Of a stretch of 64,000 bases of DNA, positions 45,571 through 61,153 are shown in pieces. Source of the DNA: a virus. Each line of letters begins with the position of its first letter. The first letter of the stretch is position 1. A model generated the notes under the pieces. It searched no databases. It was not told the DNA's origin and worked only from the letters and a program-made list of their open reading frames with translations. The position numbers and the translations under genes were made by a program. The stretch lies in IMG/VR virus record IMGVR_UViG_3300048929_000691, one strand, 5' to 3'.

Positions 45571-46422
45571 ATGGCTGATTTTAAGAAAATAACAAAAGCA
45601 GATATAGAGCAGGATGTAAGCACTAGAAAAATAGCTGATGATATAACGAGACATGATATTGCCGAATTTGGAGACAACACTTTTTTAAATTCTGTAAAGA
45701 TATCTTTTGATAATAATAAATATGTAAATTCCATGTTCGTAAATGAAGTTAAGGACAGAGAATACTCTGATTTCTATTTATCAGATAATATGGTTTATAA
45801 CTCAATAGAATCTAGTCTTAAGGTTAAGGATTTAACTAAAAATGGTGTGTATTATTCAACTGAAAAATGTACTGATGAAACCTATAAATCCCAATTAAAT
45901 AATTTCTTCTTGGTAGTAGATGAAGTAATACCAACAGGTTGTGATATTATTTATCACATTATTACAGATGACAATAGAAATTTTTTAATTAAAGCAAATG
46001 ATACAGTACCATTAGTTTTAAATATTCCATGTTATAGTTTTAGACTTAAGGCAAATTTATTGAGTAATAAGATAAACACGCCAGTAATTAATGGCTTTGC
46101 TGTACTATATTATGATGATTATGTTCAAAAAGCATACAGATTAATAAATGTAGACTTAAGTAAGGATGAGGATAATAGTGATACTATAACTCTTGTTAGA
46201 GATAGGGATTACGAAGACAAGTTAGTTAGAGTATTAACGGATAACACAAGAATAGAACTTACCTATGATGATGAAAAGGATAAGAGATTAGCAAGTGTTG
46301 AAACCTATGAGTTGCAGACTTCCTTATTAGTAGAAGAAAGTGACATGGTATATTTAAATTACACAGACAGCTCTGGTGTAACAGAGGAAGTATTAACTAA
46401 GATTATTACTAACAAATATTAA
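45571..46422 (+). CDS. Hypothetical 283-aa structural protein
   Basis: Strong RBS AAAGGAGGGG; no specific motif recognised. Confidence 0.55.
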   Translation: MADFKKITKADIEQDVSTRKIADDITRHDIAEFGDNTFLNSVKISFDNNKYVNSMFVNEVKDREYSDFYLSDNMVYNSIESSLKVKDLTKNGVYYSTEKCTDETYKSQLNNFFLVVDEVIPTGCDIIYHIITDDNRNFLIKANDTVPLVLNIPCYSFRLKANLLSNKINTPVINGFAVLYYDDYVQKAYRLINVDLSKDEDNSDTITLVRDRDYEDKLVRVLTDNTRIELTYDDEKDKRLASVETYELQTSLLVEESDMVYLNYTDSSGVTEEVLTKIITNKY

Positions 46423-46433
46423 GGGTGATAAAT

Positions 46434-48251
46434 ATGAGAATAGATAAAAAGAATGATGCAACATACACTAAAGAATTAGATGAAATGGAAAAATATTTCC
46501 TTAATATGTTTAAAAGATTTATTGAAAATGATCCTGGGTTTTTAGATAAATCTGTTGAGTCAATAATTACGGAAGCAGTTAAGAGAGCAAAAAAGGAAAT
46601 TATATTTGAAAAAGCTTCAGGAGTATTAAGTATAAACAATATGTCTGGTGTTGTTAAATTAACCTTGGATGATTTAAATGGTGAACCTAAGATTTTAACA
46701 AAATATTCAGCCTTTAATAGGCCTTTTGGCACTGATAGTGGTACAGTATGTGAAGGAAATGATCCAAGATTATCAGATGCAAGGACTCCAATGCCTCATA
46801 ACCATAATGATTTATATTACCTAAAATCGGAGCTTGTGACCCATACTGAAGATGGTTATATGGATAAGCTTGATAAGATTAAGTTAGATGGAATAGAGGC
46901 AAATGCAAATTTTTATATCCATCCAATAGGACCAGGATATAACCATATTCCTGCTGGAGGAACTAGTGGACAATACTTAAAATGGCACAGTGATGGGGAA
47001 GCAGTGTGGGAAGATGTTGCCTTAAATAAAGTAACTGAGACAGCTGATGGAATAATGTCAAAGGAAGATAAGATAAAACTAGATGGAATAGAGTCAAATG
47101 TAAAAAATTATATTCATCCAACGGGTTCTGGATATAACCATATTCCGGCAGGAGGTAATTCTGACCAAATATTAGAATGGAAAGCTGATGGAGATGCACA
47201 GTGGAAATCAAAGCCATGTGGAAATAATGGGCAAGTATATTATATAAAAGGCAATAGTTCAAGTGAAATAACTCCAGGATATATTTTATATAAAGCAACT
47301 ATAATTGAAACAGATAAGGAACTTGAGGATGCAAAAGTAACCTTAATAGATCCTTCAGTTATTTATAATACTTGGTATAGATTTTCACATGATAGTAGCG
47401 AAAATCAGCTAGCGGTAACATCAGAAATTACTGGTTGGGTTTATGATTCGGATAAGAAAAAGATAATCTGTCAAAATAATTCTATCAGTTATATTGGATT
47501 TATAAGCCCAGAAAAATATGATAATTATAATCTTGAAGTTACTATATCATCAACAGATATGGATAATGATGCTATAGGAGTTGTAATAGCTTTTACAAAG
47601 GATGCAGCTGGAAGAGAATATACTCTTTCTGTTATAAGAGCAAGGGGCTTTGACCCCCATGTTTTAATTGAAAATACATCAACTCAATATGCAATTGTAT
47701 ATAACTATAATAGAAGTGATGAAAAATTAATAAGTTATTGTTCAATTAGTTCAGATAGTATCGGTGGCTGGTCAGATATACCAAATGGTATAAGATTGAA
47801 AATAATAAGAGATGGAGATAAGATAACAACTTATAGCTCGGATATGAATTCAACAACAGTTTCTCCTTATAATAAAATTGATATTGATTTAAATTCTAAT
47901 GGCTTACTTAGTAAATTTAAAGGACCATGTCAATATGGGTATTCTTGTCTATCTCAAATGTATTCTAGTTTTTCAGATATAAAATTTGATAAAGATAATA
48001 AATATATTTATGATTCAAGAACAAATGCAACTTGGATGGTAGATGTCGCTGGAAATTGGAGCATTGACTCTACTAAAAAAGTATCAAGTGAATTTGGAAT
48101 TGGAAAGTTTGTATTTAATGAAGTAACTAAAAAGCTATATTATATTAATGATTCTGATAATATAATATCTTTTAATAGTGATTATATTAAAAAAAGTGAA
48201 TTAAATTCTTATCTTGATAATTATTTGAAAAGTAAAGGAGTGGTTAGTTAA
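46434..48251 (+). CDS. Tail fibre protein with duplicated 65-aa shaft repeat and lectin-like (TSP-C/LamG-type) head
   Basis: ATG 46434 with RBS AAGGGTGA preferred over GTG 46425. GTVCEGNDPRLSDARTP.PH.H and 2x DG.M.K.DKIKLDGIE...YIHP.G.GYNHIPAGG.S.Q.L.W..DG.A.W are fibre motifs; STDMDNDAIGVVIAF is TSP-C-like. Confidence 0.7.
   Translation: MRIDKKNDATYTKELDEMEKYFLNMFKRFIENDPGFLDKSVESIITEAVKRAKKEIIFEKASGVLSINNMSGVVKLTLDDLNGEPKILTKYSAFNRPFGTDSGTVCEGNDPRLSDARTPMPHNHNDLYYLKSELVTHTEDGYMDKLDKIKLDGIEANANFYIHPIGPGYNHIPAGGTSGQYLKWHSDGEAVWEDVALNKVTETADGIMSKEDKIKLDGIESNVKNYIHPTGSGYNHIPAGGNSDQILEWKADGDAQWKSKPCGNNGQVYYIKGNSSSEITPGYILYKATIIETDKELEDAKVTLIDPSVIYNTWYRFSHDSSENQLAVTSEITGWVYDSDKKKIICQNNSISYIGFISPEKYDNYNLEVTISSTDMDNDAIGVVIAFTKDAAGREYTLSVIRARGFDPHVLIENTSTQYAIVYNYNRSDEKLISYCSISSDSIGGWSDIPNGIRLKIIRDGDKITTYSSDMNSTTVSPYNKIDIDLNSNGLLSKFKGPCQYGYSCLSQMYSSFSDIKFDKDNKYIYDSRTNATWMVDVAGNWSIDSTKKVSSEFGIGKFVFNEVTKKLYYINDSDNIISFNSDYIKKSELNSYLDNYLKSKGVVS
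46851..47204 (+). repeat. Internal 195-nt-period duplication in tail fibre
   Basis: Copies start at about 46851 and 47046 (shared TAGATGGAATAGAG and GGATATAACCATATTCC). Confidence 0.75.
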
Positions 48252-48600
48252 TGAAAAAATATCTAGACAATAGTGGATTAACTTATTATTCTACTAAATT
48301 ATATGATTATCTTAAAAACAAACTTACTGTATTAAATTCTAATATTTCTACTTTGGAAGCAAAAGTCGATTCCGACAATAAGGATTTAAATACTAAAATA
48401 GAAAGTAATAATCAAATTATAAATCAGAATACTTCTGATATAAAAACTGCAAATAGCAATATCAGTAATCTATCAACTAAGGTTGATAATAATTATGATG
48501 AGCTTAAGGCTGATTTTAATTCTGCAGATATGAGACCTACAGGGGATTCTATTTTTATAAATAACGTGGAGCAATTTGTATTTAAGGATATAGGCGCTGG
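48224..48600 (+). repeat. Direct repeat, copy 1 (copy 2 starts at 55693)
   Basis: TTTGAAAAGTAAAGGAGTGGTTAGTTAATGA and the following ~330 nt recur at 55693 with scattered substitutions. Confidence 0.85.
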
Positions 48601-48907
48601 AGAAACAGTTACAATCCCAAATTCAGGAGATGGAAGTGACTTTCTTATAGAGTGTTTTGTAAAAACAGAAACTGGAACACCACTTGTCCATAAGAGCTTA
48701 AATATTAATACTTCTACAAAAGATTTATTAGAATATGATGATAGATATGTTGAAATAACAGATGATGGAGCAAAGCCTAAAGATAATGTAACCTTAGATT
48801 TAACTTTGCAAGGCACAATTGGTGAATATAATATCTACACTACTGATTTACTTCCAGTAGAACTGGTAGATAGTATAAATAATTTAACAGATTATAAATT
48901 ATCTTAG
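48251..48907 (+). CDS. Fibre adaptor-like protein (KYLD..GL..Y N-terminus, coiled coil), copy 1
   Basis: Paralogue of 55720..56391 with clear DNA identity over the first ~330 nt. Confidence 0.7.
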   Translation: MKKYLDNSGLTYYSTKLYDYLKNKLTVLNSNISTLEAKVDSDNKDLNTKIESNNQIINQNTSDIKTANSNISNLSTKVDNNYDELKADFNSADMRPTGDSIFINNVEQFVFKDIGAGETVTIPNSGDGSDFLIECFVKTETGTPLVHKSLNINTSTKDLLEYDDRYVEITDDGAKPKDNVTLDLTLQGTIGEYNIYTTDLLPVELVDSINNLTDYKLS

Positions 48908-48925
48908 ACGAAAGTGGTGCTTAAA

Positions 48926-49570
48926 ATGAATTGCCTTATATATTCAGGAAATAAATACTTTGGTATTGAAAATAATGAATTAACTGAAACTACATTAAAT
49001 ATTGAAAATGCTTTTGACTCATCCCTTTTAGATTCTTTAAGGGATGAGTTAAAAGCATATGCACCTTTTAAAATTGTATTATTTAATGCTAATAAGAATA
49101 AGAGCATGGTCTATAAAATAAATAGTTCCAATGCTTTTATTCTTATAAATTTAACTAATATAAAGCATGAGAACATTCAATTTGAAAACAAGCATAAGAT
49201 GCTCGTATCAAATGATTTAAAAAATTGGGATAACTACTATGATTCTAATAATTGTGACTCTAGATATTTTGAGAACTATTCTGATAGATACATCAAAGAT
49301 TATGTAAATAGTAAATGCAAATATATTAACTATATTAGCAAAAATTATAACTATATTTTATTAAAATTGAATGATGGAGAATTGCTAAATAAATTATTTG
49401 AAAATATATTAGGAGAATATAAGAGGATTGATTATGATACAAATTTTAATACAGGAGCAATAAATCAAGTGACTGTAACTTTTCCAGAAAAATATAGTCA
49501 AGTATTAATCAAAAAAACAAAATCTGTGGAAAGCAAGATAGTTATTAAGGATAGTATAGCTGGTTTTTAG
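48926..49570 (+). CDS. Stand-alone homologue of the C-terminal domain of the glycine-rich proteins
   Basis: ATG 48926 preferred (RBS GAAAGTGGTG). Ends VTFPEKYSQVLIKKTK, compare FEKEYSEILINRLTK in 49581; starts LIYSGNKYFGI, compare LLQKDNKLYIP. Confidence 0.5.
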   Translation: MNCLIYSGNKYFGIENNELTETTLNIENAFDSSLLDSLRDELKAYAPFKIVLFNANKNKSMVYKINSSNAFILINLTNIKHENIQFENKHKMLVSNDLKNWDNYYDSNNCDSRYFENYSDRYIKDYVNSKCKYINYISKNYNYILLKLNDGELLNKLFENILGEYKRIDYDTNFNTGAINQVTVTFPEKYSQVLIKKTKSVESKIVIKDSIAGF

Positions 49571-49580
49571 GAGGTGGATT

Positions 49581-51017
49581 ATGCTTAAAGAATTTACTTT
49601 TAATTATACTGGAAAGGTACAAACTTTGATTGTACCTGCTACAGGTAACTATAAACTTGAATGTTTTGGTGCCTCAGGTGGTATAGGTTATGGGAATGCA
49701 AATCCTTTTGGATTAGGTGGATATGCCTGTGGCGAAATTAAATTAAATAAAGGTGATATTCTATATGTTTATGTTGGTGAAGATGGAGTTAACACTATAA
49801 CAACACCTTCATTTGGTGGAGGTGGTGCAGCTTTTTCAACTTCAGGCCATAATGGAGGCAGAGGTGGTGGAGCTTCTGATATAAGGCTTGGTTCAGATGA
49901 TTTAAAATGTAGAATAATTGTAGCAGGAGGAGGCGGCGGAGCTCAACCAAGTTGTGGAGGCAACCACACTACCGCAGGACATGGAGGGGGATTAATTGGT
50001 GCACAAAGTTATAATCAAGCTGGTGGATATGCAGGATCGTATGCAAATGGAGGAACTCAAACCGCTGGAGGAACTTCTGGAAATGTAAGTGGACAATGGC
50101 ATGCTAATGGAAGTTTTGGATATGGTGCTAATTCACAAACCTGTGGTGCTGGTGGTGGTGGAGGCTGGTATGGAGGAGGCTCTACCTATACTGCTGGAGG
50201 AGGTGGAGGGTCGTCTTACTTAGGAACTCTTAAAAATTCTTCTACATCCTCTGGTATTAACAAAGGAAATGGGAAAGTAGTTATATCCTTAATTTACGAT
50301 GAAGTTGCTTTCTTTTTTGTGAAAGGTGAAGAATATTATTTGCCAATAGCAAAATATTTTGATATTGGTACAAAAATGTTTAAAGCTGTTAGTTTAAATG
50401 ACTTAAGGTCTGAAATTAATAATAGCAACTATGGAAATGTAAGTTTATATAATATAAATGCACCATTTGTAATAGATTCAATTTCATATAATCCACTTGA
50501 TTATCTAGATATATCTAAATGTAAAATATGTGTTATACCTAATGGGTCTAGGGCTAATGACCATGTGAAAGAACTAGATATTAATTATGTTCCTACCTCT
50601 AAAGCTTTATCTAAAACTAACATTAAAATTAAAGATATGTACACTCCTTATAAAGATAACATTCAAAATCCATTTTTGAATATAGAAGCAGCAAATAAAG
50701 CTAATATTAGCTTTCTCATAAATTATGAAAATTTATATGATATCGTAAATGACGATTGCAGTTTAATAGATAAAAAATTAATAAAAGATAATTTCTGCCT
50801 AAGCTTTAAATTAAATGATGTAGTGAGTTTGTTAAAATCAGTATCGTTATGCAGCAGAGATATTAATTATTTTAAAATAAGAGATGATGATTTAAATGTA
50901 AGCAATGATTATATAAATACTCAAATTGCTTTTGAGAAAGAATACTCAGAGATATTAATAAATAGGTTGACTAAACAATATTTTAAGTATTTAGACGATA
51001 ATTTGGACACATTCTAA
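49581..51017 (+). CDS. Glycine-rich (ALK/LTK-like polyglycine-II) domain protein, subtype A1; candidate receptor-binding protein
   Basis: FNYTGKVQT...YKLECFGASGG...GGGASDIR...RIIVAGGGGG...GGGGGWYGGG...GGGGSSY...GNGKVVI plus ~235-aa C-terminal domain. Confidence 0.75.
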   Translation: MLKEFTFNYTGKVQTLIVPATGNYKLECFGASGGIGYGNANPFGLGGYACGEIKLNKGDILYVYVGEDGVNTITTPSFGGGGAAFSTSGHNGGRGGGASDIRLGSDDLKCRIIVAGGGGGAQPSCGGNHTTAGHGGGLIGAQSYNQAGGYAGSYANGGTQTAGGTSGNVSGQWHANGSFGYGANSQTCGAGGGGGWYGGGSTYTAGGGGGSSYLGTLKNSSTSSGINKGNGKVVISLIYDEVAFFFVKGEEYYLPIAKYFDIGTKMFKAVSLNDLRSEINNSNYGNVSLYNINAPFVIDSISYNPLDYLDISKCKICVIPNGSRANDHVKELDINYVPTSKALSKTNIKIKDMYTPYKDNIQNPFLNIEAANKANISFLINYENLYDIVNDDCSLIDKKLIKDNFCLSFKLNDVVSLLKSVSLCSRDINYFKIRDDDLNVSNDYINTQIAFEKEYSEILINRLTKQYFKYLDDNLDTF

Positions 51018-51029
51018 CGAGGTGGTTTT

Positions 51030-52495
51030 ATGGCATTAAAAACAATTACATTTAATTACACTGGAATAATGCAAACTTGGATTCCACCAGAGGGTGTATA
51101 TAGGATAAAAATAGAGTGTTATGGTGCCAAGGGTGGAGGTTCCATGATGAATGGAAGTGTAAATAGTAATGGTGCTAAGGGCGGATACTGTTGTGGTGAA
51201 TATACGTTTGAACGTAATACTCAAAGGCAATTATATATATATATGCTGGTGGTGCTGGAATTGATGGTAGATTTTCTAATACTCCTGGTGGGTGGAACGG
51301 TGGAGGAATAGGAACATACGATGGAAGAGATGATGAAGGTGGTGGCAGCGGAGGTGGTGCTTCAGATGTTAGATTGGTTGCTGCATCTTCAGGTTCATGG
51401 TATGACACTTCGCATACATCATGGGATACTGACAAGTCTTTATTGTCAAGGATTATAGTAGCTGGCGGTGGTGGTGGTCTTTCTTGGAATTTTACGGCTG
51501 GTGAAGGTGGAGGATTAACTGGGGGAATGGGTGCTAATAATACAAGCACCTCAGCAACTCAAACTAGTGGATATGCATTTGGAAGAGGTCAAGATGTATG
51601 GAGTGTTGTATGGGACGGAAATGGCGGGAATATTGGACAAGGTGGAGGTGGCGGCGGCTGGTACGGTGGATATACTTCTGCTGTATATCCAAATGTTTCA
51701 GGCTGTGGTGGCTCATCATACTATGGAAATTTAATTAATGCAAAAACAATTGCTGGACTTAATAACGATAAGGGTAAAGTTACAATAACATATGAAGATG
51801 GATACTTCTTTTTGGAGCATGATGGAAAATATTATATAACAACAGAAAAATATTTTGATACGACATCAAATTCCTTCATTCCAGTAAGTATATCTGATAT
51901 TTATAGCAACATAGTTAATAGTGGTGCTGTGTATCCATTAATCAATTTATATAAGCCGTTTATGATAGATGGAGTTTATTATTATCCCAATGATATGTTT
52001 GATTATGCTAATTCTAAAATATGTATTATTGATATTAATAAAGATTATAAATTAGATATGAATTATATCCCATCAAACATAGCATTATCTAAAACAAATA
52101 TAAAAGTAAAAAATAAATATACCCCAGTACATGATGAATTTGAGCTTACATTTTTAGATATAAATTCAAATAATAAAGCAAAAATATATTATTTTTTAGA
52201 TTTTGGTAAAAATGAAGCATATAAAAATTGAAGTGTATTAGATGATGATATTATAATTAATGATTTTTACTTAAACCTTAAATTTAATTCATATGATGGA
52301 ATATTTGATTCTATAACATTATATGTGAAGAATAATGATAAATATACTAAACTTAAAAGCACTAATATTAATGTATATGACAATTTTAATTTTGAAATGC
52401 TCATATGCTTCAAAGATAATTATGAAGAAGTACTGGTTAATAAGATTGCAAAACAATCAATGGATTATACAATTGATACTTTAGATAAATTTTAG
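51030..52495 (+). pseudogene. Glycine-rich domain protein subtype B1, disrupted by +2 frameshift in a (TA)6 tract and an in-frame TGA
   Basis: Removing one AT from 51232-51244 restores LYIYAGGAG...GGGASDVR continuity into the 51374 frame. TGA at 52229-52231 is followed in frame by the normal C-terminus ending YTIDTLDKF* at 52495. Confidence 0.85.
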
Positions 52496-52673
52496 TAGTT
52501 ATACAATGTTTAATTATGTTAATGAGAAAAGTTTATAGTTACATTAATATTAAAAACTGCTGGAATAATTATTTTTATTGAAAATTATAGTAGATGAATA
52601 ATAAAAAGAAAGATTATATAGAAAGTATTATGATTATAAAATATTGAATGTGTGCTTTTTAGGGGGAATTTTT

Positions 52674-54047
52674 ATGCAAGAAACTTTAACATTTAATTAT
52701 ACTGGAGCAGTTCAAACGTGGACAGTTCTTCAAACTGGTTATTATAAAATTGAAGCGTGTGGAGCTAAAGGAGGAAGTGTATTAGATGGAGTTGGCGGAA
52801 ATGGTGGATATGCTTCCGGTAATATTAGGTTAACAAAAGGACAAGTGTTATATGTATATATTGGAGGTTCTGGTTATATTAGCGGCTGGAATGGTGGCGG
52901 AAGTGGATCTGCTTATGGTGGAGGGGCCTCTGATATAAGGACAATTGGAGGACAATGGGATGATTTATCTTCGTTACAATCAAGGCTGATAGTTGCTGGA
53001 GGCGGTGGAGGTGCAGAAAGAACTACAGGCGGTGCTGGTGGTGGTCTCATTGGAGGAGCTCCTGTAGGTTCATATAGTACAAGCGTCTACGCATCTTCAG
53101 GATCTCAAGTTTCCGGAGGAACAGGAGGTTCTTCAGGTAGTTATGGTTTAGCTCAATCAGGTGGATTTGGATATGGTGGAAGTGGTAGTGTTGGAGATTC
53201 TGGTCCTGGAGGAGGTAGTGGCTGGTATGGTGGAGGGGGAATCACATATGCTGGAGGTGCTGGCGGTGGTTCTTCTTATGTTGATTTACTGGAAAATGGT
53301 AAAACTTCCTCAGGTGTAAATACAGGGAATGGGAAAGTAACGATAACTTTATTAAATAGGGAAATATTCGCATTGGTTAAAGATGGCAGATACTATGTTC
53401 CAAATAAACAAACATTTGATATAGAAACAAAACAATTCAAAGATGTCTCTATTGAAGATGTTACATTATATAATTGTAGCATAAAAGAATTAACTAATGC
53501 ATTTATGTTAAATGGGGAAACTATTACACCGAATAATATAATAGATTTTTCTAAATACAAAATTTGCTTATTATCAGATAACATTTTACCAGATACTTTA
53601 GAAATAAAATATAATCCATCATTAAAAATATTATCGAAAACGACTATTAAAATAAAAGAAAAGTATACTCCTTTTTCAGAAGCTTTGCGAAATGCATATT
53701 TAAACATTATTGGAACAAATAAATCTAAAATTGGATACACAGTTAATTATGAAAAAATTTTTAAGGATGTATCAAATAATAATGCATCTTTAATAGATGA
53801 AGAAATACTAAAAGATGATTTTTATTTAAGTTTTAAATTTAATGAGACTTCAAGTATATTAAATACAATAACGTTATACAAAAATGATAATGTTACTTAT
53901 TCGAAAATAGAAAATGATAATTTAATTATAACTAATGATTTTGTCAATACATTTGTAAATTTTGAAAGAGCATATGGAAAAGTATTGATAAATAGAATAA
54001 CCAAAACTTATTTTAAATATTATGCTGACAGCTTAGATAAATTCTAG
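52674..54047 (+). CDS. Glycine-rich domain protein, subtype A2
   Basis: Start moved to ATG 52674 (RBS AGGGGG); same motif set as A1; ends RITKTYFKYYADSLDKF. Confidence 0.75.
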   Translation: MQETLTFNYTGAVQTWTVLQTGYYKIEACGAKGGSVLDGVGGNGGYASGNIRLTKGQVLYVYIGGSGYISGWNGGGSGSAYGGGASDIRTIGGQWDDLSSLQSRLIVAGGGGGAERTTGGAGGGLIGGAPVGSYSTSVYASSGSQVSGGTGGSSGSYGLAQSGGFGYGGSGSVGDSGPGGGSGWYGGGGITYAGGAGGGSSYVDLLENGKTSSGVNTGNGKVTITLLNREIFALVKDGRYYVPNKQTFDIETKQFKDVSIEDVTLYNCSIKELTNAFMLNGETITPNNIIDFSKYKICLLSDNILPDTLEIKYNPSLKILSKTTIKIKEKYTPFSEALRNAYLNIIGTNKSKIGYTVNYEKIFKDVSNNNASLIDEEILKDDFYLSFKFNETSSILNTITLYKNDNVTYSKIENDNLIITNDFVNTFVNFERAYGKVLINRITKTYFKYYADSLDKF

Positions 54048-54058
54048 TGGAGGTTCTT

Positions 54059-54262
54059 ATGGCGACGTGAAGAGTAACGTTTAATTATATTGGAGATATG
54101 AAAACTTTTATGATACCGCTTAATACTAAAAGAATTATTATAGAATGTTGGAGAACTTCTGGAGGCAGCAACTACAATCTGAATGGTAAAGATGGATATG
54201 TGAAAGGTACTTTGGATTATCCCCCAACAAATAAAACATTATATTTAAAGGAGAGTTTTTAA
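54059..54262 (+). pseudogene. Truncated relic of a further subtype-B glycine-rich gene
   Basis: RBS GGAGG, then MAT*RVTFNYIGDMKTFMIPLNTKRIIIECWRTSGG...DGYVKGTLDYPPTNKTLY-LKESF*; homologous to the N-termini of the B genes and cut off at the LY motif. Confidence 0.8.
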
Positions 54263-55660
54263 ATGCTTAAAATAGTTGCTTTTAATTATACAGGTAATGT
54301 ACAAAATTTTGCAATTCCAAATCATGTAACACAATTTTATATAAAATGCTATGGAGCTCAAGGATATACTTTTAACATGTATGGATTATATAATTCTGGT
54401 GGTAAGGGCGGATTAGCATATGGAAAATATATATTAAAACCTGATGATAATAGAACGCTTAATATTTATGTTGGTGGGACAAATGGATATAATGGAGGGG
54501 GTATTGGAGGAAATGGTAATACAGGAGGTGGAGCTTCTGATATTAGAGTAAATGGTACTACTTTAACTAACCGTATAATAGTTGGCGGTGGTGGTGGTGG
54601 TGCAAGTGGATATCGTCCAGGTGGAGATGGTGGTGGTCTTATAGGCGGAAGCGGTGAAGCTTCAGGGGGGACTCAAACATCAGGTGGATATAGTGTAGAT
54701 TATAATGGTGCTATTGTAGGTAGAGGAACTTTGGGGCAAGGAGGAGTTGCTTGGTATAATTATATTTATGCTGGTCCAGGTGGTGGAGGATACTACGGTG
54801 GTGGTGGCGGATCAAACCACTATGGAACCAATAATGATAATTCTGGAGGGGGAGGCTCATCCTATATAGCATTACTTGATCCGATAGATGCATCAACTAC
54901 TTCTGGGGTAAGGACAGGAAATGGATTGGTTGAAATAACATATGAAGAAGATCCAAATGCTTATTTCTTAGAAAAAGATGATAAATATTATGTTATAGAT
55001 AAAAAATATTTTGATAATATAAATAAAATATTTTTACCAGTTGAACTGGAGGATATATATAATGACTCAGTTGACACAGCTATTACTCCAAGAGCCGATA
55101 TGAGTATAACATCAATGTCAAAGCCATTTGTGCTAGACAATCAAACCTATGATCCCATTAAATTAATAGATTTTAAAGAATATAAACTTTGTACTTTATC
55201 TAAAGATAATTTATATAAAATAACAATGTATTATACAGCATCAAATAAAGCTTTATCTGCGACAAATATAAAAATAAAGGAAAAATATATTTTAGATAAT
55301 TATAGGACAAATGCAAATGATTCAATATTCTTTTTAGATATAAAAGCTACTGATAAAACAAAAATAGATTATTTTTTTGATTATGGGGAAACCAAATCAT
55401 ATAATAATTGCAGTATATTAAATACAGACAAAATAAGTAATGATTTTTATTTTGATTTTAAATTAAATTTGGCAGATAGTTTATTACAGTCAATAACTTT
55501 ATATGGTAAGAATAATGATAAATATGTAAAGCTTAAAGAGCCTAATATAAATATATATGATAAATTCATAAAATTTAATGAAAGCTACAATGAAGTTATA
55601 ATTAATAAATTATGCAAGCAAAGTGTTGAATATACAATTAATACCTTGGATAGATTTTAA
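54263..55660 (+). CDS. Glycine-rich domain protein, subtype B2
   Basis: FNYTGNVQ...GGGASDIR...RIIVGGGGGG...VEITYE; ends YTINTLDRF. Confidence 0.75.
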   Translation: MLKIVAFNYTGNVQNFAIPNHVTQFYIKCYGAQGYTFNMYGLYNSGGKGGLAYGKYILKPDDNRTLNIYVGGTNGYNGGGIGGNGNTGGGASDIRVNGTTLTNRIIVGGGGGGASGYRPGGDGGGLIGGSGEASGGTQTSGGYSVDYNGAIVGRGTLGQGGVAWYNYIYAGPGGGGYYGGGGGSNHYGTNNDNSGGGGSSYIALLDPIDASTTSGVRTGNGLVEITYEEDPNAYFLEKDDKYYVIDKKYFDNINKIFLPVELEDIYNDSVDTAITPRADMSITSMSKPFVLDNQTYDPIKLIDFKEYKLCTLSKDNLYKITMYYTASNKALSATNIKIKEKYILDNYRTNANDSIFFLDIKATDKTKIDYFFDYGETKSYNNCSILNTDKISNDFYFDFKLNLADSLLQSITLYGKNNDKYVKLKEPNINIYDKFIKFNESYNEVIINKLCKQSVEYTINTLDRF

Positions 55661-55672
55661 GGACATGAAGAA

Positions 55673-55720
55673 ATGCAAAATAAATATATAATTTTGAAAA
55701 GTAAAGGAGTGGTTAGTTAA
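55673..55720 (+). other. Chimeric duplication junction (mini-ORF MQNKYIILKSKGVVS)
   Basis: The first 30 nt are identical to the start of the 59315 gene; the last part is identical to the end of the 46434 gene; the join is at a shared TTTGAAAAGT. Confidence 0.9.
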
Positions 55721-56391
55721 TGAGAAAATATCTAGATAATAATGGATTAACTTATTATTCTACTAAATTATATGATTATCTTAAAAATAAACTTACTGCA
55801 TTAAATTCTAAGATTTCTAATTTAGAAATAAAAGTCGATTCCGACAATAAAGAGTTAAGCAATAAAATAGAAAATAACAATCAAATTATAAACCAGAATA
55901 CTTTTGATATAAAAACTGCAAATAGTAATATCAGTAATCTATCAACTAAGGTTGATAATAATTATGATGAGCTTAAGACTGATTTAAATGCTCCAGATAT
56001 AAGGCCAACAGGGGATTCTATTTATATAAATAACGTGGAGCAATTTGTTTTCAAAGATGTTGTAGCTGGTCAAGCTGTAACTATTCCTAATAAAGGGGAT
56101 GGATGTGACTTCTTGATTCAATGTTATGTACAAGCAGAGCAAGGAACACCCCTTCAACATAAAGTTATAAATATAAATACTGCGACAAAGGATTTATTAG
56201 AATATGATCCTAGGTATGTTGAAATAACCGATGATGGTGCTATACCAAAAACTTCTGTTTCTTTACAACTTCAAAAAGAAGATACAATAAGTGGATATAA
56301 TGTATATGTAACTGATTATCTTCCAGTAGAATTAGTAGATAATATTACAGCGTTAACAGGCTATGGACTTGTATTGGATGAAACTCCTTAG
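55720..56391 (+). CDS. Fibre adaptor-like protein, copy 2
   Basis: Paralogue of 48251 (MRKYLDNNGLTYYSTKLYDYLKNKL...). Confidence 0.7.
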   Translation: MRKYLDNNGLTYYSTKLYDYLKNKLTALNSKISNLEIKVDSDNKELSNKIENNNQIINQNTFDIKTANSNISNLSTKVDNNYDELKTDLNAPDIRPTGDSIYINNVEQFVFKDVVAGQAVTIPNKGDGCDFLIQCYVQAEQGTPLQHKVININTATKDLLEYDPRYVEITDDGAIPKTSVSLQLQKEDTISGYNVYVTDYLPVELVDNITALTGYGLVLDETP

Positions 56392-56533
56392 AGAATAAAA
56401 AAACATGGTAGTTGTGTTGTTTGAAATGAAAGTAAAACTATTATTGTAAATTCCTAACGAGATTACTAATTAGTTGTTAAAAACTTACTTATGAGAAAGA
56501 AAAATTTATTAAAAATACTATAGGAGGGGTTTA

Positions 56534-57940
56534 ATGGTAATTAAGCAATTTGATTTTGTTTACACAGGTGCAGTACAAACATTTGTTGTTCCTTACTCTG
56601 GATACTATGATCTTCAAGTGTGGGGAGCTCAGGGTGGAAGTAGAAACAATAATGGTGGAATGGGTGGATATTCAAAAGGTCATCTATTCCTAACTAAAGC
56701 TCAAATCCTTTATGTATATGTTGGAGCATGTCCGAACTACAATACTAATTGGAATGGTGGAGGTTATTCAGTCTATCCTGGTGGAGATGCTAGCGATATT
56801 AGAATTGGAGGAAAAGCTCTTACTAACAGAATCATAGTTGCTGGTGGAGGTGGCGGTACTGGATATGGTCCTAGTACTACATGGAACTATGTTGGAGGTG
56901 TAGGTGGAGGAGTTGCTGGAGGAAACGGACAAGGTGGTGCTGGATATTATGGTTTCGGTGGAACACAAACAGTTGGAGGTGCAAGAGGAACCTATATTGA
57001 AAGCAACTGGTATAACCAGGCTGGTAGTTTCGGACAAGGTGGTAATTGTGTCTCTAACTCCTATGGAGGAGGTGGCGGTGGCGGCTGGTATGGCGGCGGC
57101 TGCGGAGAGTGTGGTAGTGGTAATGATGGTGGAGGAGGCGGTGGCTCTGGATATATTGGTGGTGTATTAAATGGAACAATGCAATCTGGAGTTAACGCTG
57201 GTAATGGAAAAGTCATGATTAGATATTGCAGTCAAAGTACAATATTATTACAAAAAGATAATAAATTATATATTCCAGATAAGGCTCATTTTAATATATA
57301 TAGCAAAGAGTTTAAAGAAGCCACAATTGATGAAATTACAGTATTATGCAAAGATTGGGAAGCCACATTTCCTAGTTTACAAAGTATGTTAAATCCAACA
57401 TTTGAATATAACAAAGAAAGGTACACTTCAAGTGATATTATAGATTTTTCTCAATATAAACTATGCGTATTCACTACAGAAAAAATGGCTGGCATGGACA
57501 TAACCTTTAATCCAACTCAAACTTCTCTTGATAAAACAGAAATAAAAATAAAAGATAAATTTATTCCATTTATTGATAAGCTTTATAATGTGTTTATGGA
57601 TATTACAACTTTAGATAAAACAAAATTATCATATCGTATGTTTTATGATATATATGGTGCAGTAGATTATAAAAAAACAAATTTATTATATCAAGAAATA
57701 CTAGAGGGAGATCTTAATATATGGTTTAAATTAAATGATAAAGCTAGCATGCTTGAATCAATAATATTATATGGAAGACCATTCAATAATTATATTGAAA
57801 TAAAAGATGATGATTATTTGATGCAAGTTGATTTTATAAATACCTATGTCACATTTAATTACGACAATAAAGAAGTTTTAATAAATAGAATTACTAAAGA
57901 AAGCTTCAAGTTAACTGATAGTTCGTTGGAAAAATTCTAA
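56534..57940 (+). CDS. Glycine-rich domain protein, subtype A3
   Basis: YTGAVQTFVVPYSGYYDLQVWGAQGG...ILYVYVG...GNGKVMI; ends RITKESFKLTDSSLEKF. Confidence 0.75.
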   Translation: MVIKQFDFVYTGAVQTFVVPYSGYYDLQVWGAQGGSRNNNGGMGGYSKGHLFLTKAQILYVYVGACPNYNTNWNGGGYSVYPGGDASDIRIGGKALTNRIIVAGGGGGTGYGPSTTWNYVGGVGGGVAGGNGQGGAGYYGFGGTQTVGGARGTYIESNWYNQAGSFGQGGNCVSNSYGGGGGGGWYGGGCGECGSGNDGGGGGGSGYIGGVLNGTMQSGVNAGNGKVMIRYCSQSTILLQKDNKLYIPDKAHFNIYSKEFKEATIDEITVLCKDWEATFPSLQSMLNPTFEYNKERYTSSDIIDFSQYKLCVFTTEKMAGMDITFNPTQTSLDKTEIKIKDKFIPFIDKLYNVFMDITTLDKTKLSYRMFYDIYGAVDYKKTNLLYQEILEGDLNIWFKLNDKASMLESIILYGRPFNNYIEIKDDDYLMQVDFINTYVTFNYDNKEVLINRITKESFKLTDSSLEKF

Positions 57941-57952
57941 GGGGGGGTAGTA

Positions 57953-59302
57953 ATGGCTTTAAAAACTGTTACTTTTTATTATACTGGCAAGGTTCAAACA
58001 ATACAGTTGCCAGACGGATTAAGAGAAGTTTATTTAGAAGCAGCCGGATCTATTGGCAATAAGAATGGTGGTGCTGGAGGCTATGGTGGTAAAGCTTATG
58101 GAACATATAAATTTAAAAATGGAGATTCGCGAATACTAAATATTTATGTTGGTGGAATCGGATGGAATAGTGGCAATAGTTATGGTGGTGGTGCTTCTGA
58201 CATTAGATTAAATGGAACTGACTTTACCAATAGAATTATAGTTGCTGGTGGTGGCGGTAGTGGATCTGGATGGGAGCCAGGAGGTGCTGGCGGCGGACTT
58301 GTTGGTAATGCTGGTGGAAGCCCAGCGTGTGGCGGTGGCGGAACTCAAACATCTGGAGGATTTGCTGGAGCAAACTACGGATATGGAATAGGATATGCTG
58401 GTGGCTTTGGCTATGGTGGTCGTGATACCTGGAGTGGTGGTGGCGGCGGCTGGTATGGTGGTGGTTCTGGTGGTGGTAAATATTGCGATGATGGCGGCGG
58501 AGGTGGAGGTTCATCTTATATAAGCCTACTCGAAAGCGCTGGAACTAGTACTGGAGTTAATGGTACTACAGGGTATGTAAAAATAACATATGAAGAATTT
58601 CCATTTTTATTTTGTTTAAAAAAAGATAATGATTATTTTATTCCACAATCAAATTTTTATGATGCTACTACAAATAGCTTTGCTCCACTTACTATAAATC
58701 AAGTAGTAGATTCTATAAAAACAAACGTGCTATCAATTTTTGAATTATGTAAGCTATTTGTAAAAGATGGGACAACATATGATCCATCAAAAATAATAGA
58801 TTATTCAGAATATAAAATAGTTGGTTTATCAAGCCAAGAAGTTTACAAACTCAAACCAATTTATAAGCCAACAGATAAAGCATTACTTAAGACAAACATA
58901 CGAGTTCGTGAGCAATACAGACAAGTTAGTCAAGGACTACCTAGTTTGTTTATTGATATAACCTCTCCAGATAAAAATAATTTAGACTATTTTATTGATT
59001 ATAATAGAGACGATCAAGATAATTTACGGAAAAGCTGCGGTATATTAAATAAAGAGATACTAAAATATGATTTCTTTTTAAGTTTTAGGTTTGAGGCTAC
59101 TGATGCTAAATTGCAAACAATAACACTATTTGGAAGAAATAATGATAAGTATACTAAGATAAAAGATTATAGTATTGATGTATATGATGATTTTATTAGT
59201 AAAGCATATATAGTATTTCACAAAGACTATGATGAAGTGTTTGTAAATAAAGTATCGAGTGAAAGCGCTACTTATACAATCAACACATTAGATAAATTTT
59301 AA
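57953..59302 (+). CDS. Glycine-rich domain protein, subtype B3
   Basis: MALKTVTFYYTG...ILNIYVG...VKITYE; ends YTINTLDKF. Confidence 0.75.
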   Translation: MALKTVTFYYTGKVQTIQLPDGLREVYLEAAGSIGNKNGGAGGYGGKAYGTYKFKNGDSRILNIYVGGIGWNSGNSYGGGASDIRLNGTDFTNRIIVAGGGGSGSGWEPGGAGGGLVGNAGGSPACGGGGTQTSGGFAGANYGYGIGYAGGFGYGGRDTWSGGGGGWYGGGSGGGKYCDDGGGGGGSSYISLLESAGTSTGVNGTTGYVKITYEEFPFLFCLKKDNDYFIPQSNFYDATTNSFAPLTINQVVDSIKTNVLSIFELCKLFVKDGTTYDPSKIIDYSEYKIVGLSSQEVYKLKPIYKPTDKALLKTNIRVREQYRQVSQGLPSLFIDITSPDKNNLDYFIDYNRDDQDNLRKSCGILNKEILKYDFFLSFRFEATDAKLQTITLFGRNNDKYTKIKDYSIDVYDDFISKAYIVFHKDYDEVFVNKVSSESATYTINTLDKF

Positions 59303-59314
59303 GGATGTGAAAAG

Positions 59315-61153
59315 ATGCAAAATAAATATATAATTTTGAAAAGTCCTGTTAAGATTGGCGATTATGAAAGAGTGGCAAGCTATTCGGAAGGTCTTACTAA
59401 AGGTGAAGAGCAGCTTTTAGTCACAAGAGATTTAAAGTTTTTTTTAACCGATGGTAAAGGTGGATATTTAGAATTTAAATCAATAAATTCAGGTATAACT
59501 CTTGATGAAGTAAATCAAAAATTAAAGGATTTAGATAATAAGATATCTGATGAAATAAGAGATTTAGATGACAAAAGTTCTAAGGATATTAAAACCCTTA
59601 AAGATGCAGTTGATGCATTGTCTCTTAAATTTTCAGGCTATGTGACAACAGAGGATTTTGAGGATTTAAAAACCAAAGTAGAGTCGAATACGACTTTGGC
59701 CACTCATGATAATCGAGAGGTACTTGATAAATTTAGTGTTGATAAAGATGATAATCCTTTATTTAATGGGAAAAAGATTGTAGCAGATTTTGATACTTCT
59801 GGTATAGAAGCTGAAATTGCCAATTTGAATGCTAGAAGTATAATAGGAAGTAATTTAGATTATGGGTTATTTGGAATTTCTAAAGCAACAAGTATCGGTG
59901 CTGGTGACATAGTTCCATTTAATACAACATATATGAACAACGGATTAACAGTTTCAAATGGTGTTGTAAAGCTAAAAAAAGGAAGAAAATATGAAGTAAA
60001 AGCACAATCAGCTACAAATGTTTCTAATAATAATGTTTGGTTTTTTATACAAGCTAATTCTGTTAAAGTTGGGAAATCTGGTTGGTGTGGAAATGTTAAT
60101 CAAATAAGTATACCAGCAGTAGCAATAATAGACTGTAGTGTAGATACAAGTCTTATAATAACAACTTCAAATGAATATAACATAGATGATTCATGTGCTC
60201 TTTTGACATATTTAGAAATAGTAGAAATAGGAAGAATAACTGTGATAGATCCTTGCGAAGATGGTAAAAATATAAATTTTGAATATGGTTATTTTAAAGC
60301 AAACCAATCAGCAAATTTAGCACCTGGCAATCATTTAGAACTAGATATGATAAAAGGGAACATTACTATTTCCACTGGTTCAAATCAGGAAAAAGGATTA
60401 ATAACATTACATGCCAATAAAAAATATAAGCTTGATTTTTCTTATTCTAATGCTGGAAATTCTACTAATGGTATTATAGATTTTAATGTATGTGATTCTA
60501 ATGGAAATATATTAGAAGATTTACCATATGCGTATCCTACAACTTATACTGGTGATTCACAAGCTTCACCTGTCTCAACATTTATTTTAGAACCTACAAT
60601 TGATACTGTAATAAATTTTAAAATAGCTGCAAACGCCTCACATTGGGTAGGTGCTTACCTTGTTATAGAAGAGATCGCACAACCTTATTACTTTAATTAT
60701 TACAAAGATAGTCTACAAACAACTACTTTATTCAATGGAGCTGCTGACACTAAATCAATAGATTATACTTTAAGCGATAGTATACAGAATTATGAAAAAA
60801 TAATAGTATATGCAGCATGTAATATTAATGGAGTCATTAGAGAAAAAACTACTAACATAATTAATGTTTCTGAAATAGAAAATAATAATAAGTATGAATT
60901 TATAGTTGGATTTTCAATTAATGCTTCTTACTATTATTTCATTGAATTTGCATTTCCAAGCGATAGAACCTTTAATATAGCTAATAATGGATTTGTTGGA
61001 TGGCCTAATCCTATAATATACAAAATAGAAGGGATTGGCTATACTTATGAAAATCCGTACCAAGATGTTATTACAACGATCGATGAATTTACAGTTGCAG
61101 ATTCTACCATAGACTCAGACATAAATTCAGTATGGAATGAGGTGGGAATCTAA
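59315..61153 (+). CDS. Modular fibre/receptor-binding protein 1 (coiled-coil N-terminus, two C1q/BclA-C-like domains, C-terminal beta-domain)
   Basis: GDIVPFNT...NGLTVSNGVVKLKKGRKYEV resembles C1q/TNF-like jelly rolls; LFNG...YTLSDSIQNYEKI is a fibre-tip motif. Confidence 0.6.
   Translation: MQNKYIILKSPVKIGDYERVASYSEGLTKGEEQLLVTRDLKFFLTDGKGGYLEFKSINSGITLDEVNQKLKDLDNKISDEIRDLDDKSSKDIKTLKDAVDALSLKFSGYVTTEDFEDLKTKVESNTTLATHDNREVLDKFSVDKDDNPLFNGKKIVADFDTSGIEAEIANLNARSIIGSNLDYGLFGISKATSIGAGDIVPFNTTYMNNGLTVSNGVVKLKKGRKYEVKAQSATNVSNNNVWFFIQANSVKVGKSGWCGNVNQISIPAVAIIDCSVDTSLIITTSNEYNIDDSCALLTYLEIVEIGRITVIDPCEDGKNINFEYGYFKANQSANLAPGNHLELDMIKGNITISTGSNQEKGLITLHANKKYKLDFSYSNAGNSTNGIIDFNVCDSNGNILEDLPYAYPTTYTGDSQASPVSTFILEPTIDTVINFKIAANASHWVGAYLVIEEIAQPYYFNYYKDSLQTTTLFNGAADTKSIDYTLSDSIQNYEKIIVYAACNINGVIREKTTNIINVSEIENNNKYEFIVGFSINASYYYFIEFAFPSDRTFNIANNGFVGWPNPIIYKIEGIGYTYENPYQDVITTIDEFTVADSTIDSDINSVWNEVGI

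What the first reader, a model, noticed from the sequence alone, without database searches (positions are those of the whole stretch)
55673..55720. Fossil junction of a microhomology-mediated tandem duplication (gene accordion) of the receptor-binding module
Seen: 55673-55702 equals the first 30 nt of the 59315 gene (ATGCAAAATAAATATATAATTTTGAAAAGT), and 55693-55720 equals the end of the 46434 fibre gene (TTTGAAAAGTAAAGGAGTGGTTAGTTAA). The 10-mer TTTGAAAAGT occurs at 48224, 55693 and 59335. This is the scar expected if the segment from the fibre-gene end to the 59315 start was duplicated by recombination at that 10-mer, giving [adaptor + GR pairs] twice. The flanking B-gene 3' ends (55640-55672 vs 59282-59314) are also homologous. 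The junction is still identical to both parents while the adaptor copies have diverged and the GR genes differ greatly. Inference: the array expands and contracts, and the two units exchange content.
Basis: partly seen in the sequence, partly recalled or inferred. Interest (0 to 1): 0.75.

Follow-up and report, generated by a model that had tools for sequence, protein, structure and literature searches.

The report
Recombination scar between stacked tail-fibre cassettes
A 48-base leftover that fuses the start of one tail-fibre gene to the end of another marks where a second receptor-binding gene cassette was stacked behind the first in a Clostridium phage-plasmid; it is real and inherited, but it is an ordinary kind of phage recombination scar and probably not the original duplication joint.

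Summary
55673-55702 equals the first 30 nt of the 59315 gene, and 55693-55720 equals the last 28 nt of the fibre gene. The two pieces overlap at TTTGAAAAGT and give an in-frame 15-codon mini-ORF that ends on the start codon of a second adaptor gene.

The joint is not an assembly artefact. It is also present in two other isolate assemblies, one JGI metagenome contig and one Logan contig. In two of these relatives it carries a stop at codon 2, so it is a decaying fossil and not a conserved leader peptide.

- **Unit 2 is not a diverged copy of unit 1.** The two adaptors are about 91% identical in the N-terminal half but about 65% in the C-terminal half. The type-2 half is orthologous across relatives.
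- **Relatives have a different joint at the same site.** G001 (by size the C. saccharoperbutylacetonicum N1-4(HMT) megaplasmid) and nine metagenome contigs join 59315 nt 1-9 to fibre about 47723. That joint has two further microhomology deletions. Neither joint can be derived from the other by deletion alone.
- **Cassette gain and loss at microhomologies is well supported between lineages.**

The scan has noted analogous scars before on other DNA. I rate this a new member of a known kind, of low to moderate interest.

The parts
46434..48251 (+). Fibre gene, 605-aa type: parent 1 of the joint. Its last 28 nt (48224-48251) hold the 10-mer and the Shine-Dalgarno sequence of the adaptor gene.
   Evidence: ORF; phrog_33406 tail fiber, 2.2e-81; sequence
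46415..46422 (+). AATATTAA, present once here. In G001 the same 8-mer flanks both ends of a 4.6-kb extra cassette (unit 0: adaptor-like gene, 223-aa gene, 550-aa glycine-rich gene, 464-aa glycine-rich gene).
48251..48907 (+). Adaptor 1 (218 aa, type-1 C-terminal half). Its start overlaps the fibre stop (TAATG).
   Evidence: (phrog_16326)
48914..49570 (+). orf218, the gene in second position of unit 1. Its C-terminal part is homologous to that of the ~440-aa gene that follows adaptor 2 in relatives.
49581..55660 (+). Unit-1 array of glycine-rich (PF12810) genes: A1, B1 (frameshifted), A2, a B-type relic and B2.
55673..55720 (+). The joint J. It consists of 59315-gene nt 1-30 fused in frame at the 10-mer to the last 28 nt of the fibre gene, giving a 15-codon mini-ORF.
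   Evidence: also present in L040, L041, L042 and in X1 contig 48479-55722
55693..55702 (+). TTTGAAAAGT, the microhomology at the crossover.
55703..55720 (+). Retained fibre tail carrying the Shine-Dalgarno sequence (AAAGGAG) and the stop/start overlap for adaptor 2.
   Evidence: Read from the sequence. The same element lies before adaptor genes in G001, L039 and L057.
55720..56391 (+). Adaptor 2 (223 aa, type-2 C-terminal half).
   Evidence: model with a long N-terminal helix, residues 3-89
56392..56533 (+). Relic (first ~15 nt and last ~100 nt) of the ~440-aa gene that follows adaptor 2 in G001, L039, L043 and L046.
   Evidence: the same gap is present in L040 and L041
56534..59302 (+). Unit-2 glycine-rich genes A3 and B3.
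59315..61153 (+). The 59315 gene (612 aa, phrog_12269): parent 2 of the joint. The 10-mer lies at 59335-59344. Its first 30 nt are invariant in seven relatives; the more distant L047 and L057 differ.

Best explanation
J is an inherited scar of illegitimate, microhomology-mediated recombination in the tail-fibre region of a roughly 136-kb Clostridium phage-plasmid. It marks the left edge of a second cassette (adaptor, partner gene, glycine-rich genes) stacked behind the first.

The history I think most likely has four steps. (1) One old stacking event joined a genome part ending '...B2, start of the 59315 gene' to a part beginning 'fibre 3' region, type-2 adaptor'. This was an unequal exchange, probably between two different alleles of the locus, and it left a chimeric 59315'-fibre' pseudogene longer than either joint seen today. 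(2) In the window's lineage this relic was trimmed by a deletion between the two in-frame copies of TTTGAAAAGT, which produced J. (3) In the G001/L039 lineage the same relic was trimmed at AAAAT and by two further short-repeat deletions. (4) Only deletions that keep the last ~20 nt of the fibre gene survive, because that tail carries the ribosome-binding site and the stop/start overlap of the adaptor gene.

Shown: the joint, its parents, its presence in independent assemblies, the alternative joint, and the two adaptor types. Inferred: the order of events and the existence of the longer ancestral relic. The core claim (a real, inherited illegitimate-recombination scar at a cassette boundary) I put at about 0.95. 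The specific claim that the 10-mer event is a secondary deletion I put at about 0.4, and that is the confidence given for this explanation.
For: - **Joint and parents.**
- **Independent assemblies.** X1 has a contig spanning 48479-55722 with 0 differences. X3, a 96-98% relative, has both B2 and B3 running into the 30-mer, and it has adaptor 2. L040, L041 and L042 carry J.
- **J is an inherited fossil in L041.** L041's own fibre is the ~1000-aa type and has no 10-mer.
- **Alternative joint at the same site.** It lies between a B2-type gene and a type-2 adaptor in G001, L039, L043-46 and L053-56. It consists of 59315 nt 1-9, then fibre 47723-47756, 48053-91 and 48202-51 at 90-93% identity. The window keeps 59315 nt 10-20, which those relatives lack, and they keep fibre pieces that the window lacks. 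Neither joint can therefore come from the other by deletion alone.
- **Deletions at short repeats are the rule in this locus.** The internal deletions of that relic lie at AGAT and AAGTGAAT. The unit-0 indel lies at AATATTAA.
- **The window lineage is derived.** It has lost most of the ~440-aa gene that G001 and L039 keep intact.
- **Adaptor types.** The N-halves are 89-95% identical among all copies. The C-halves fall into two types about 65% apart, with W2 85-93% identical to G2 and L2.
- **Type-2 adaptors are never free.** In every context examined they lie behind J or the alternative relic and never directly behind an intact fibre.
- **Parental adjacencies exist.** The single-adaptor relative L047 shows a B-type gene next to the real 59315 gene, and a fibre next to an adaptor.
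Against: - No relative with the postulated longer chimeric relic was found.
- This model needs one more event than the readings in which J or the G001-type joint is primary.
- J has 0-1 changes in 48 nt, while the G001-type relic is 7-10% diverged from the fibre. That fits a younger J, although the numbers are small: 1 change observed against 3.7-6 expected between the window and L041, P about 0.02-0.12.
- The joint allele correlates with the unit-2 content (A3/B3 against the 440-aa gene). Two independent stacking events would also explain that.
Confidence: 0.4

Rival explanations
1. One reading: J is the primary joint of the stacking or duplication event. An unequal crossover at TTTGAAAAGT between the 59315 start and an intact fibre 3' end, within one genome or between two related genomes, created the second unit directly. 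The G001/L039 joint would then be an independent event, or it arose later by copying fibre 3' sequence into J.
For: - J is minimal, clean and in frame, and it is identical to both parents.
- The 10-mer is the longest microhomology available.
- Stacking is recurrent in this phage group. L057 has a third, unrelated joint: a glycine-rich gene followed by a ~35-nt tail of the other fibre type and then an adaptor.
- L047 shows the required left-hand adjacency.
- This reading needs no unseen ancestor.
Against: - Units 1 and 2 are not copies of each other. The adaptor C-halves are ~65% identical and the glycine-rich content differs, so a within-genome duplication would need wholesale later replacement.
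- The same B2-type left flank and the orthologous type-2 adaptor flank both joint alleles, which argues for a single origin.
- No free right-hand parent (fibre followed by a type-2 adaptor) was found.
- Deriving the G001-type relic from J needs an insertion of about 500 nt of pseudogene DNA.
Confidence: 0.3
2. The G001/L039-type joint (59315 nt 9 | fibre ~47723) is the primary one. J arose later by repair or template switching: a broken end in the relic copied the true B3-59315 boundary and re-annealed at the 10-mer. Alternatively, J arose by an unequal crossover between the true 59315 start and the 10-mer of the relic, followed by loss of the extra unit.
For: - The G001-type joint looks like a raw duplication joint that then decayed (ATG changed to ATA, internal deletions).
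- In that lineage, about 45 nt of the B2 end plus the intergenic region are nearly identical to the B3 end, which gives homology for invasion.
- The window lineage is derived in other respects (440-aa gene relic).
- J is less decayed, which fits a younger age.
Against: - It needs a complex event or two events.
- No three-unit intermediate was seen.
- The B2 and B3 ends in the window match at only 25/33, with no conversion tract to the left of the ATG.
Confidence: 0.15
3. J is kept because it works. The mini-ORF would be a translated leader that couples ribosomes to the adaptor-2 start, or J would be a conserved linker used as a crossover point for cassette exchange.
For: - The mini-ORF has its own Shine-Dalgarno-like AAGGA 9 nt upstream, and its stop overlaps the adaptor ATG.
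- J shows 1 change in 48 nt against 12.6% divergence in the neighbouring gene relic (P about 0.02).
Against: - L041 and L042 have a stop at codon 2, and the G001-type relatives have ATA in place of the ATG.
- Only the last ~20 nt, which hold the ribosome-binding site, are common to all adaptor upstream regions.
- There is no promoter or terminator signal at J.
Confidence: 0.05
4. J is an assembly chimera caused by the repeated 30-mers.
For: Logan contigs break at the shared 30-mers, so short k-mer graphs cannot phase which input joins which output.
Against: - J is present in two isolate assemblies from other strains, one JGI metagenome contig and an X1 contig that runs from adaptor 1 through B2 into J.
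- A diverged copy carries its own substitution.
- Depth is even across the region.
Confidence: 0.01

Closest known systems
Novel joints made by illegitimate recombination in mosaic phage genomes (Hendrix/Hatfull view of phage mosaicism; short-homology joints as in lambda gal/bio transducing phages). Cited from my own knowledge, not looked up here.
   Same: Two non-homologous gene parts are joined at a few shared bases close to a gene boundary. The product survives because the gene starts remain intact. The joint is then inherited and decays.
   Different: Both parent sequences are still present in the same genome, so the joint has the topology of a tandem repeat. A second allele with other breakpoints exists at the same site in relatives.
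Microhomology-mediated tandem duplication and deletion in bacteria and phages (slipped mispairing between short direct repeats)
   Same: The breakpoints carry short direct repeats: 10 nt at J, and 4-8 nt at four other breakpoints in this locus.
   Different: The two units are not copies of each other. Whether the 10-mer event was the duplication or a later deletion is unresolved.
Gene accordions (poxvirus K3L amplification, Elde et al. 2012). Cited from my own knowledge.
   Different: Accordions are arrays of near-identical copies that vary within a population over a few passages. Here the units are old, heterologous alleles, and variation is shown only between lineages.
Branched multi-receptor-binding-protein systems with anchor or adaptor proteins (Klebsiella phage PhiK64-1, Ackermannviridae such as CBA120, phage G7C). 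Cited from my own knowledge.
   Same: Several receptor-binding candidates are encoded in tandem. The small adaptor-like proteins have a conserved N-terminal half and a type-specific C-terminal half.
   Different: The distal proteins here are PF12810 glycine-rich proteins of unknown role. No binding between the parts was tested.
Earlier notes of this scan on other DNA: e1-1130435 (chimeric scar at a 12-nt microhomology between stacked defence cassettes) and e1-4091292 (tandem fibre-like genes with leftover flank fragments)
   Same: The same kind of scar: a fused leftover of the two flanking genes between stacked cassettes.
   Different: Other organisms and other genes. I did not check those notes.

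Membership tests
Tandem-duplication novel joint | The joint reads 'end of unit (downstream locus) | start of unit (upstream locus)', and both parents are present in the same genome. | tested here: met
   59315 nt 1-30 is followed by fibre 48224-48251, and the parents lie at 48224 and 59315.
Tandem-duplication novel joint | Microhomology is shared by both parents at the breakpoint. | tested here: met
   TTTGAAAAGT is in frame in both parents. There are 4 copies against 0.61 expected.
Tandem-duplication novel joint | The two units are copies of each other, with similar divergence along their length. | tested here: not met
   The adaptor N-halves are ~91% identical and the C-halves ~65%. orf218 has no intact counterpart in unit 2. 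The glycine-rich genes are only 60-75% identical.
Tandem-duplication novel joint | All relatives that carry the second unit share the same breakpoints. | tested here: not met
   G001, L039, L043-46 and L053-56 have 59315 nt 9 | fibre ~47723 instead.
Gene accordion | Copy-number differences among close relatives. | tested here: met
   L047 has one adaptor after the fibre, the window has two, and G001 has three including unit 0.
Gene accordion | Near-identical repeat units. | tested here: not met
   The units are heterologous.
Gene accordion | Expanded and collapsed forms coexist within one population. | tested here: inconclusive
   Only Logan contigs were available. The joints seen in the mixed soil run X2 may come from other strains. 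No raw or long reads were available.
Translated leader ORF coupled to the downstream gene | The open reading frame and its start codon are conserved in relatives. | tested here: not met
   L041 and L042 have a stop at codon 2, and the G001-type relatives have ATA for ATG.
Branched receptor-binding system with adaptor | A conserved attachment part and a variable partner-specific part in the adaptor. | tested here: met
   The N-half is 89-95% identical among all copies, and the C-half falls into two types. The model shows a long N-terminal helix followed by a beta-rich domain of low confidence.
Branched receptor-binding system with adaptor | The adaptor physically binds the fibre and the distal proteins. 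| not tested
No complex prediction or experiment was done.

The most novel reading that the evidence does not exclude
The tail-fibre locus of these Clostridium phage-plasmids works as a true cassette accordion. Units of [fibre 3' tail with ribosome-binding site + adaptor + partner + glycine-rich pair] would be gained and lost at short repeats often enough to be polymorphic within single populations. The portable fibre tail would act as a cassette header that keeps every relocated adaptor expressed, so host range would evolve by stacking and shedding whole units.
Probability: 0.2. Interest if true: 0.55.

Novelty: new member of a known kind. Interest (0 to 1): 0.3.

Why it matters
This is a clean natural example of how a phage builds a multi-cassette receptor-binding locus. 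Both parent sequences, the joint, a second joint allele, a single-unit relative and several deletion relics can all be read from sequence. It shows that the last ~20 nt of the fibre gene travel with the adaptor gene because they hold its ribosome-binding site. It gives exact PCR targets for asking whether the array still changes size. It does not reveal a new mechanism.

Tried and rejected
- **Phage and viral collections.** Megablast and tblastn against the phage collection gave nothing, and the search for related loci in viral contigs gave nothing.
- **Pattern scans.** The 19-mer spanning the 10-mer and the ribosome-binding site gave only chance hits in unrelated organisms in genome contigs and none in viral contigs. 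The metagenome scan gave one hit, L039, which proved useful.
- **G076.** Its contigs break inside the glycine-rich array, so its unit count could not be read from that assembly. The near-identical scaffold L047 answered the question instead.
- **Read laying.** It returned contigs only. They break at the shared 30-mers and cannot show collapsed or expanded forms within a population. The X2 joint 46535->55718 and the joint 57675->47984 seen in X1, X3 and X36 remain unexplained. Parts without cover in X36 are not used as evidence.
- **Constraint on J.** The test (1 change against 3.7-6 expected) is too weak to decide.
- **Promoter and terminator scan.** Nothing found at J.
- **Adaptor model.** The C-terminal domain has low confidence (pLDDT 50-80), so I ran no fold search.
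- **Pfam.** No family for the ~440-aa partner gene. A more distant homologue gives only a weak DUF1565 hit.
- **Literature.** A search for microhomology duplications in tail-fibre genes found no paper holding all the terms.

Full report
**Observation.** The sequence is as described.
- 55673-55702 is identical to 59315-59344 (30/30).
- 55693-55720 is identical to 48224-48251 (28/28, or 30/30 with the next two bases).
- TTTGAAAAGT lies at 48224, 55693 and 59335, and once more at 229, which is unrelated. That is 4 copies against 0.61 expected, and no shuffle of 100 reaches 4.
- The 10-mer is in the same reading frame (Leu-Lys-Ser) in both parents. The joint (J) is therefore a 15-codon ORF whose stop overlaps the ATG of the next gene.

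**Setting.** The region lies between baseplate-like genes and a lysis module, and it encodes tail-fibre candidates. In order, the genes are:
- a 605-aa fibre (46434-48251);
- adaptor 1 (48251-48907);
- orf218;
- glycine-rich PF12810 genes A1, B1 (broken), A2, a B relic and B2;
- J;
- adaptor 2 (55720-56391);
- a 142-nt gap;
- A3 and B3;
- a family of 59315-like genes.

The window's own assembly is not held. The nearest genome, G001, has a second contig of 136,188 bp that is syntenic with the window. That is the published size of the C. saccharoperbutylacetonicum N1-4(HMT) megaplasmid (PMC5343299). Assigning G001 to that strain is my inference from the size match. The longest contig on record for the window's adaptor 1 is 136,518 nt, so the element is a phage-plasmid-sized replicon.

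**J is not an artefact.**
- Logan contigs of a 2025 root metagenome (X1) are identical to the window over 14 kb. One of them runs from 48479 through B2 and J to 55722.
- In a biofilm metagenome (X3), a 96-98% relative has B2 and B3 each running into the 30-mer, and it has adaptor 2.
- J is identical in Clostridium sp. YIM B02555 (L040).
- J carries one C-to-T change in a second C. saccharoperbutylacetonicum assembly (L041) and in a JGI contig (L042).
- L040 is not an independent witness of age. From 500 nt upstream of J to the middle of adaptor 2 it differs from the window at 1 base.
- L041 differs from the window by 6-8% in the flanks and by 12.6% in the neighbouring gene relic.
- The change in L041 and L042 turns codon 2 of the mini-ORF into a stop, so the ORF is not conserved.
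- L041's own fibre is a ~1000-aa type with a different 3' end and no 10-mer. The fibre piece in its J is therefore inherited and is not refreshed from the resident fibre gene.

**Unit 2 is not a diverged copy of unit 1.** I aligned six adaptor genes with 60 nt of upstream sequence.
- The first ~330 nt are 89-95% identical among all copies. The differences are patchy and do not sort by copy.
- The last ~330 nt fall into two types about 65% apart. Type 1 comprises window adaptor 1, G001 adaptor 1 and G076. Type 2 comprises window adaptor 2, G001 adaptor 2 and L039.
- Window adaptor 2 is 85-93% identical to the other type-2 genes in that part. The second adaptor is therefore orthologous across these elements.
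- The two types are far older than the 8% difference in the N-halves. Either the stacking joined two different alleles of the locus, or the N-halves are homogenised by conversion.

**A second joint allele.** G001 and nine metagenome contigs (L039, L043-46, L053-56) have a 161-nt spacer at the same place, between a B2-type gene and a type-2 adaptor. In order it contains:
- the 59315 start reduced to 9 nt, with ATG changed to ATA;
- fibre 47723-47756, joined at AAAAT;
- fibre 48053-48091;
- fibre 48202-48251, which includes the 10-mer and the ribosome-binding site.

These pieces are 90-93% identical to the window's fibre. The two internal deletions lie at AGAT and AAGTGAAT. G001 has in addition lost the end of B2.

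The window keeps 59315 nt 10-20, which this allele lacks. This allele keeps fibre pieces that the window lacks. Neither can therefore be made from the other by deletion alone.

**Other evidence on dynamics.**
- **Relic after adaptor 2.** The 142 nt after adaptor 2 in the window are the first ~15 and last ~100 nt of a ~440-aa gene that is intact after adaptor 2 in G001 and L039. L040 and L041 share this relic.
- **Unit 0.** G001 and the G076/L047 type carry an extra cassette between the 283-aa gene and the fibre. In G001 it is flanked by AATATTAA, of which the window has one copy.
- **Single-adaptor relative.** L047 has one adaptor after the fibre, six glycine-rich genes and then the real 59315 homologue, with a B2-like end next to it.
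- **More distant relatives.** L049-L052 have a single fibre-adaptor unit.
- **A third joint.** L057 has a glycine-rich gene followed by ~35 nt of the other fibre type's tail and then an adaptor.

Stacking is therefore recurrent. In every case the fibre tail that holds the adaptor's ribosome-binding site moves with the adaptor.

**Reading.** The robust core is that J is a real, inherited illegitimate-recombination scar at a cassette boundary. I put this at about 0.95. The order of events is not resolved.
- **Favoured reading (about 0.4).** One stacking event left a longer chimeric relic, and the two lineages trimmed it independently at short repeats. The flanks of both alleles are orthologous. 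Type-2 adaptors were never found free behind an intact fibre. Simple short-repeat deletions are demonstrably frequent in this locus.
J is the primary joint. J's cleaner state and the recurrence of stacking speak for it.
- **Third reading (about 0.15).** J was made later from the G001-type relic by template switching.
- **Functional leader (about 0.05) and assembly artefact (about 0.01).** Both are unlikely.

**Constraint on J.** Between the window and L041, J shows 1 change in 48 nt against 3.7-6 expected. This is weak evidence. Only the ribosome-binding tail is common to all adaptor upstream regions. No promoter or terminator signal lies at J.

**Adaptor label.** The model of adaptor 2 shows a long N-terminal helix (residues 3-89, high confidence) and a beta-rich C-terminal domain of low confidence. 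This fits a short fibre-like or adaptor protein, but binding was not tested.

**Novelty.** Short-homology novel joints and stacking of receptor-binding cassettes are known features of phage evolution. This scan has noted similar scars on other DNA. The case is well documented but ordinary.

Noticed in passing
window 51231-51247: The TA tract that breaks B1 is 2 nt shorter in L040 and L041, where the gene is intact (487 and 486 aa). It is also 2 nt shorter in contigs of X3, X2 and X36. The frameshift is specific to the window and the identical X1 contigs.
   Followed up: partly
window 54062-54245: The B-type 5' relic before B2 is absent from L040 and L041, where A2 and B2 are 11 nt apart. It is also absent from a contig of X2 (joint 54058->54263).
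   Followed up: partly
window 56392-56533: Relic of a ~440-aa gene, possibly a beta-helix protein (a distant homologue gives a weak DUF1565 hit). The gene is intact after adaptor 2 in G001, L039, L043 and L046.
   Followed up: yes
window 46415-46422; L011:4653-9294 (G001:C2:66653-71294): A 4.6-kb extra cassette in G001 (adaptor-like gene at 40% identity, 223-aa gene, 550-aa and 464-aa glycine-rich genes) is flanked by the 8-nt repeat AATATTAA. The window and L040 have a single copy of the repeat and no cassette.
   Followed up: yes
window 54673-55672 vs L040: Sharp mosaic boundary inside B2. The window and L040 differ by 19.6% in 54673-55172 and by 0.2% in 55173-55672, which indicates a recent recombination crossover in mid-gene.
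   Followed up: partly
L041:1-2786, L018:10367-13378, L047:6995-9997: A second fibre allele of ~1000 aa with a different C-terminus and 3' end (no 10-mer) replaces the 605-aa fibre in some relatives. It is followed by the same type-1 adaptor.
   Followed up: partly
L057:2943-2994: A third, independent joint: a 940-aa glycine-rich/CE2_N protein gene is followed by ~35 nt of the 1000-aa-type fibre tail and then an adaptor gene.
   Followed up: partly
window 46400-60400: Contigs of a 2025 root metagenome (X1) are identical to the window over all 14 kb. Contigs in X1, X3 and X36 join 57675 back to 47984 with the same 21 letters between the two sides, which is unexplained.
   Followed up: no
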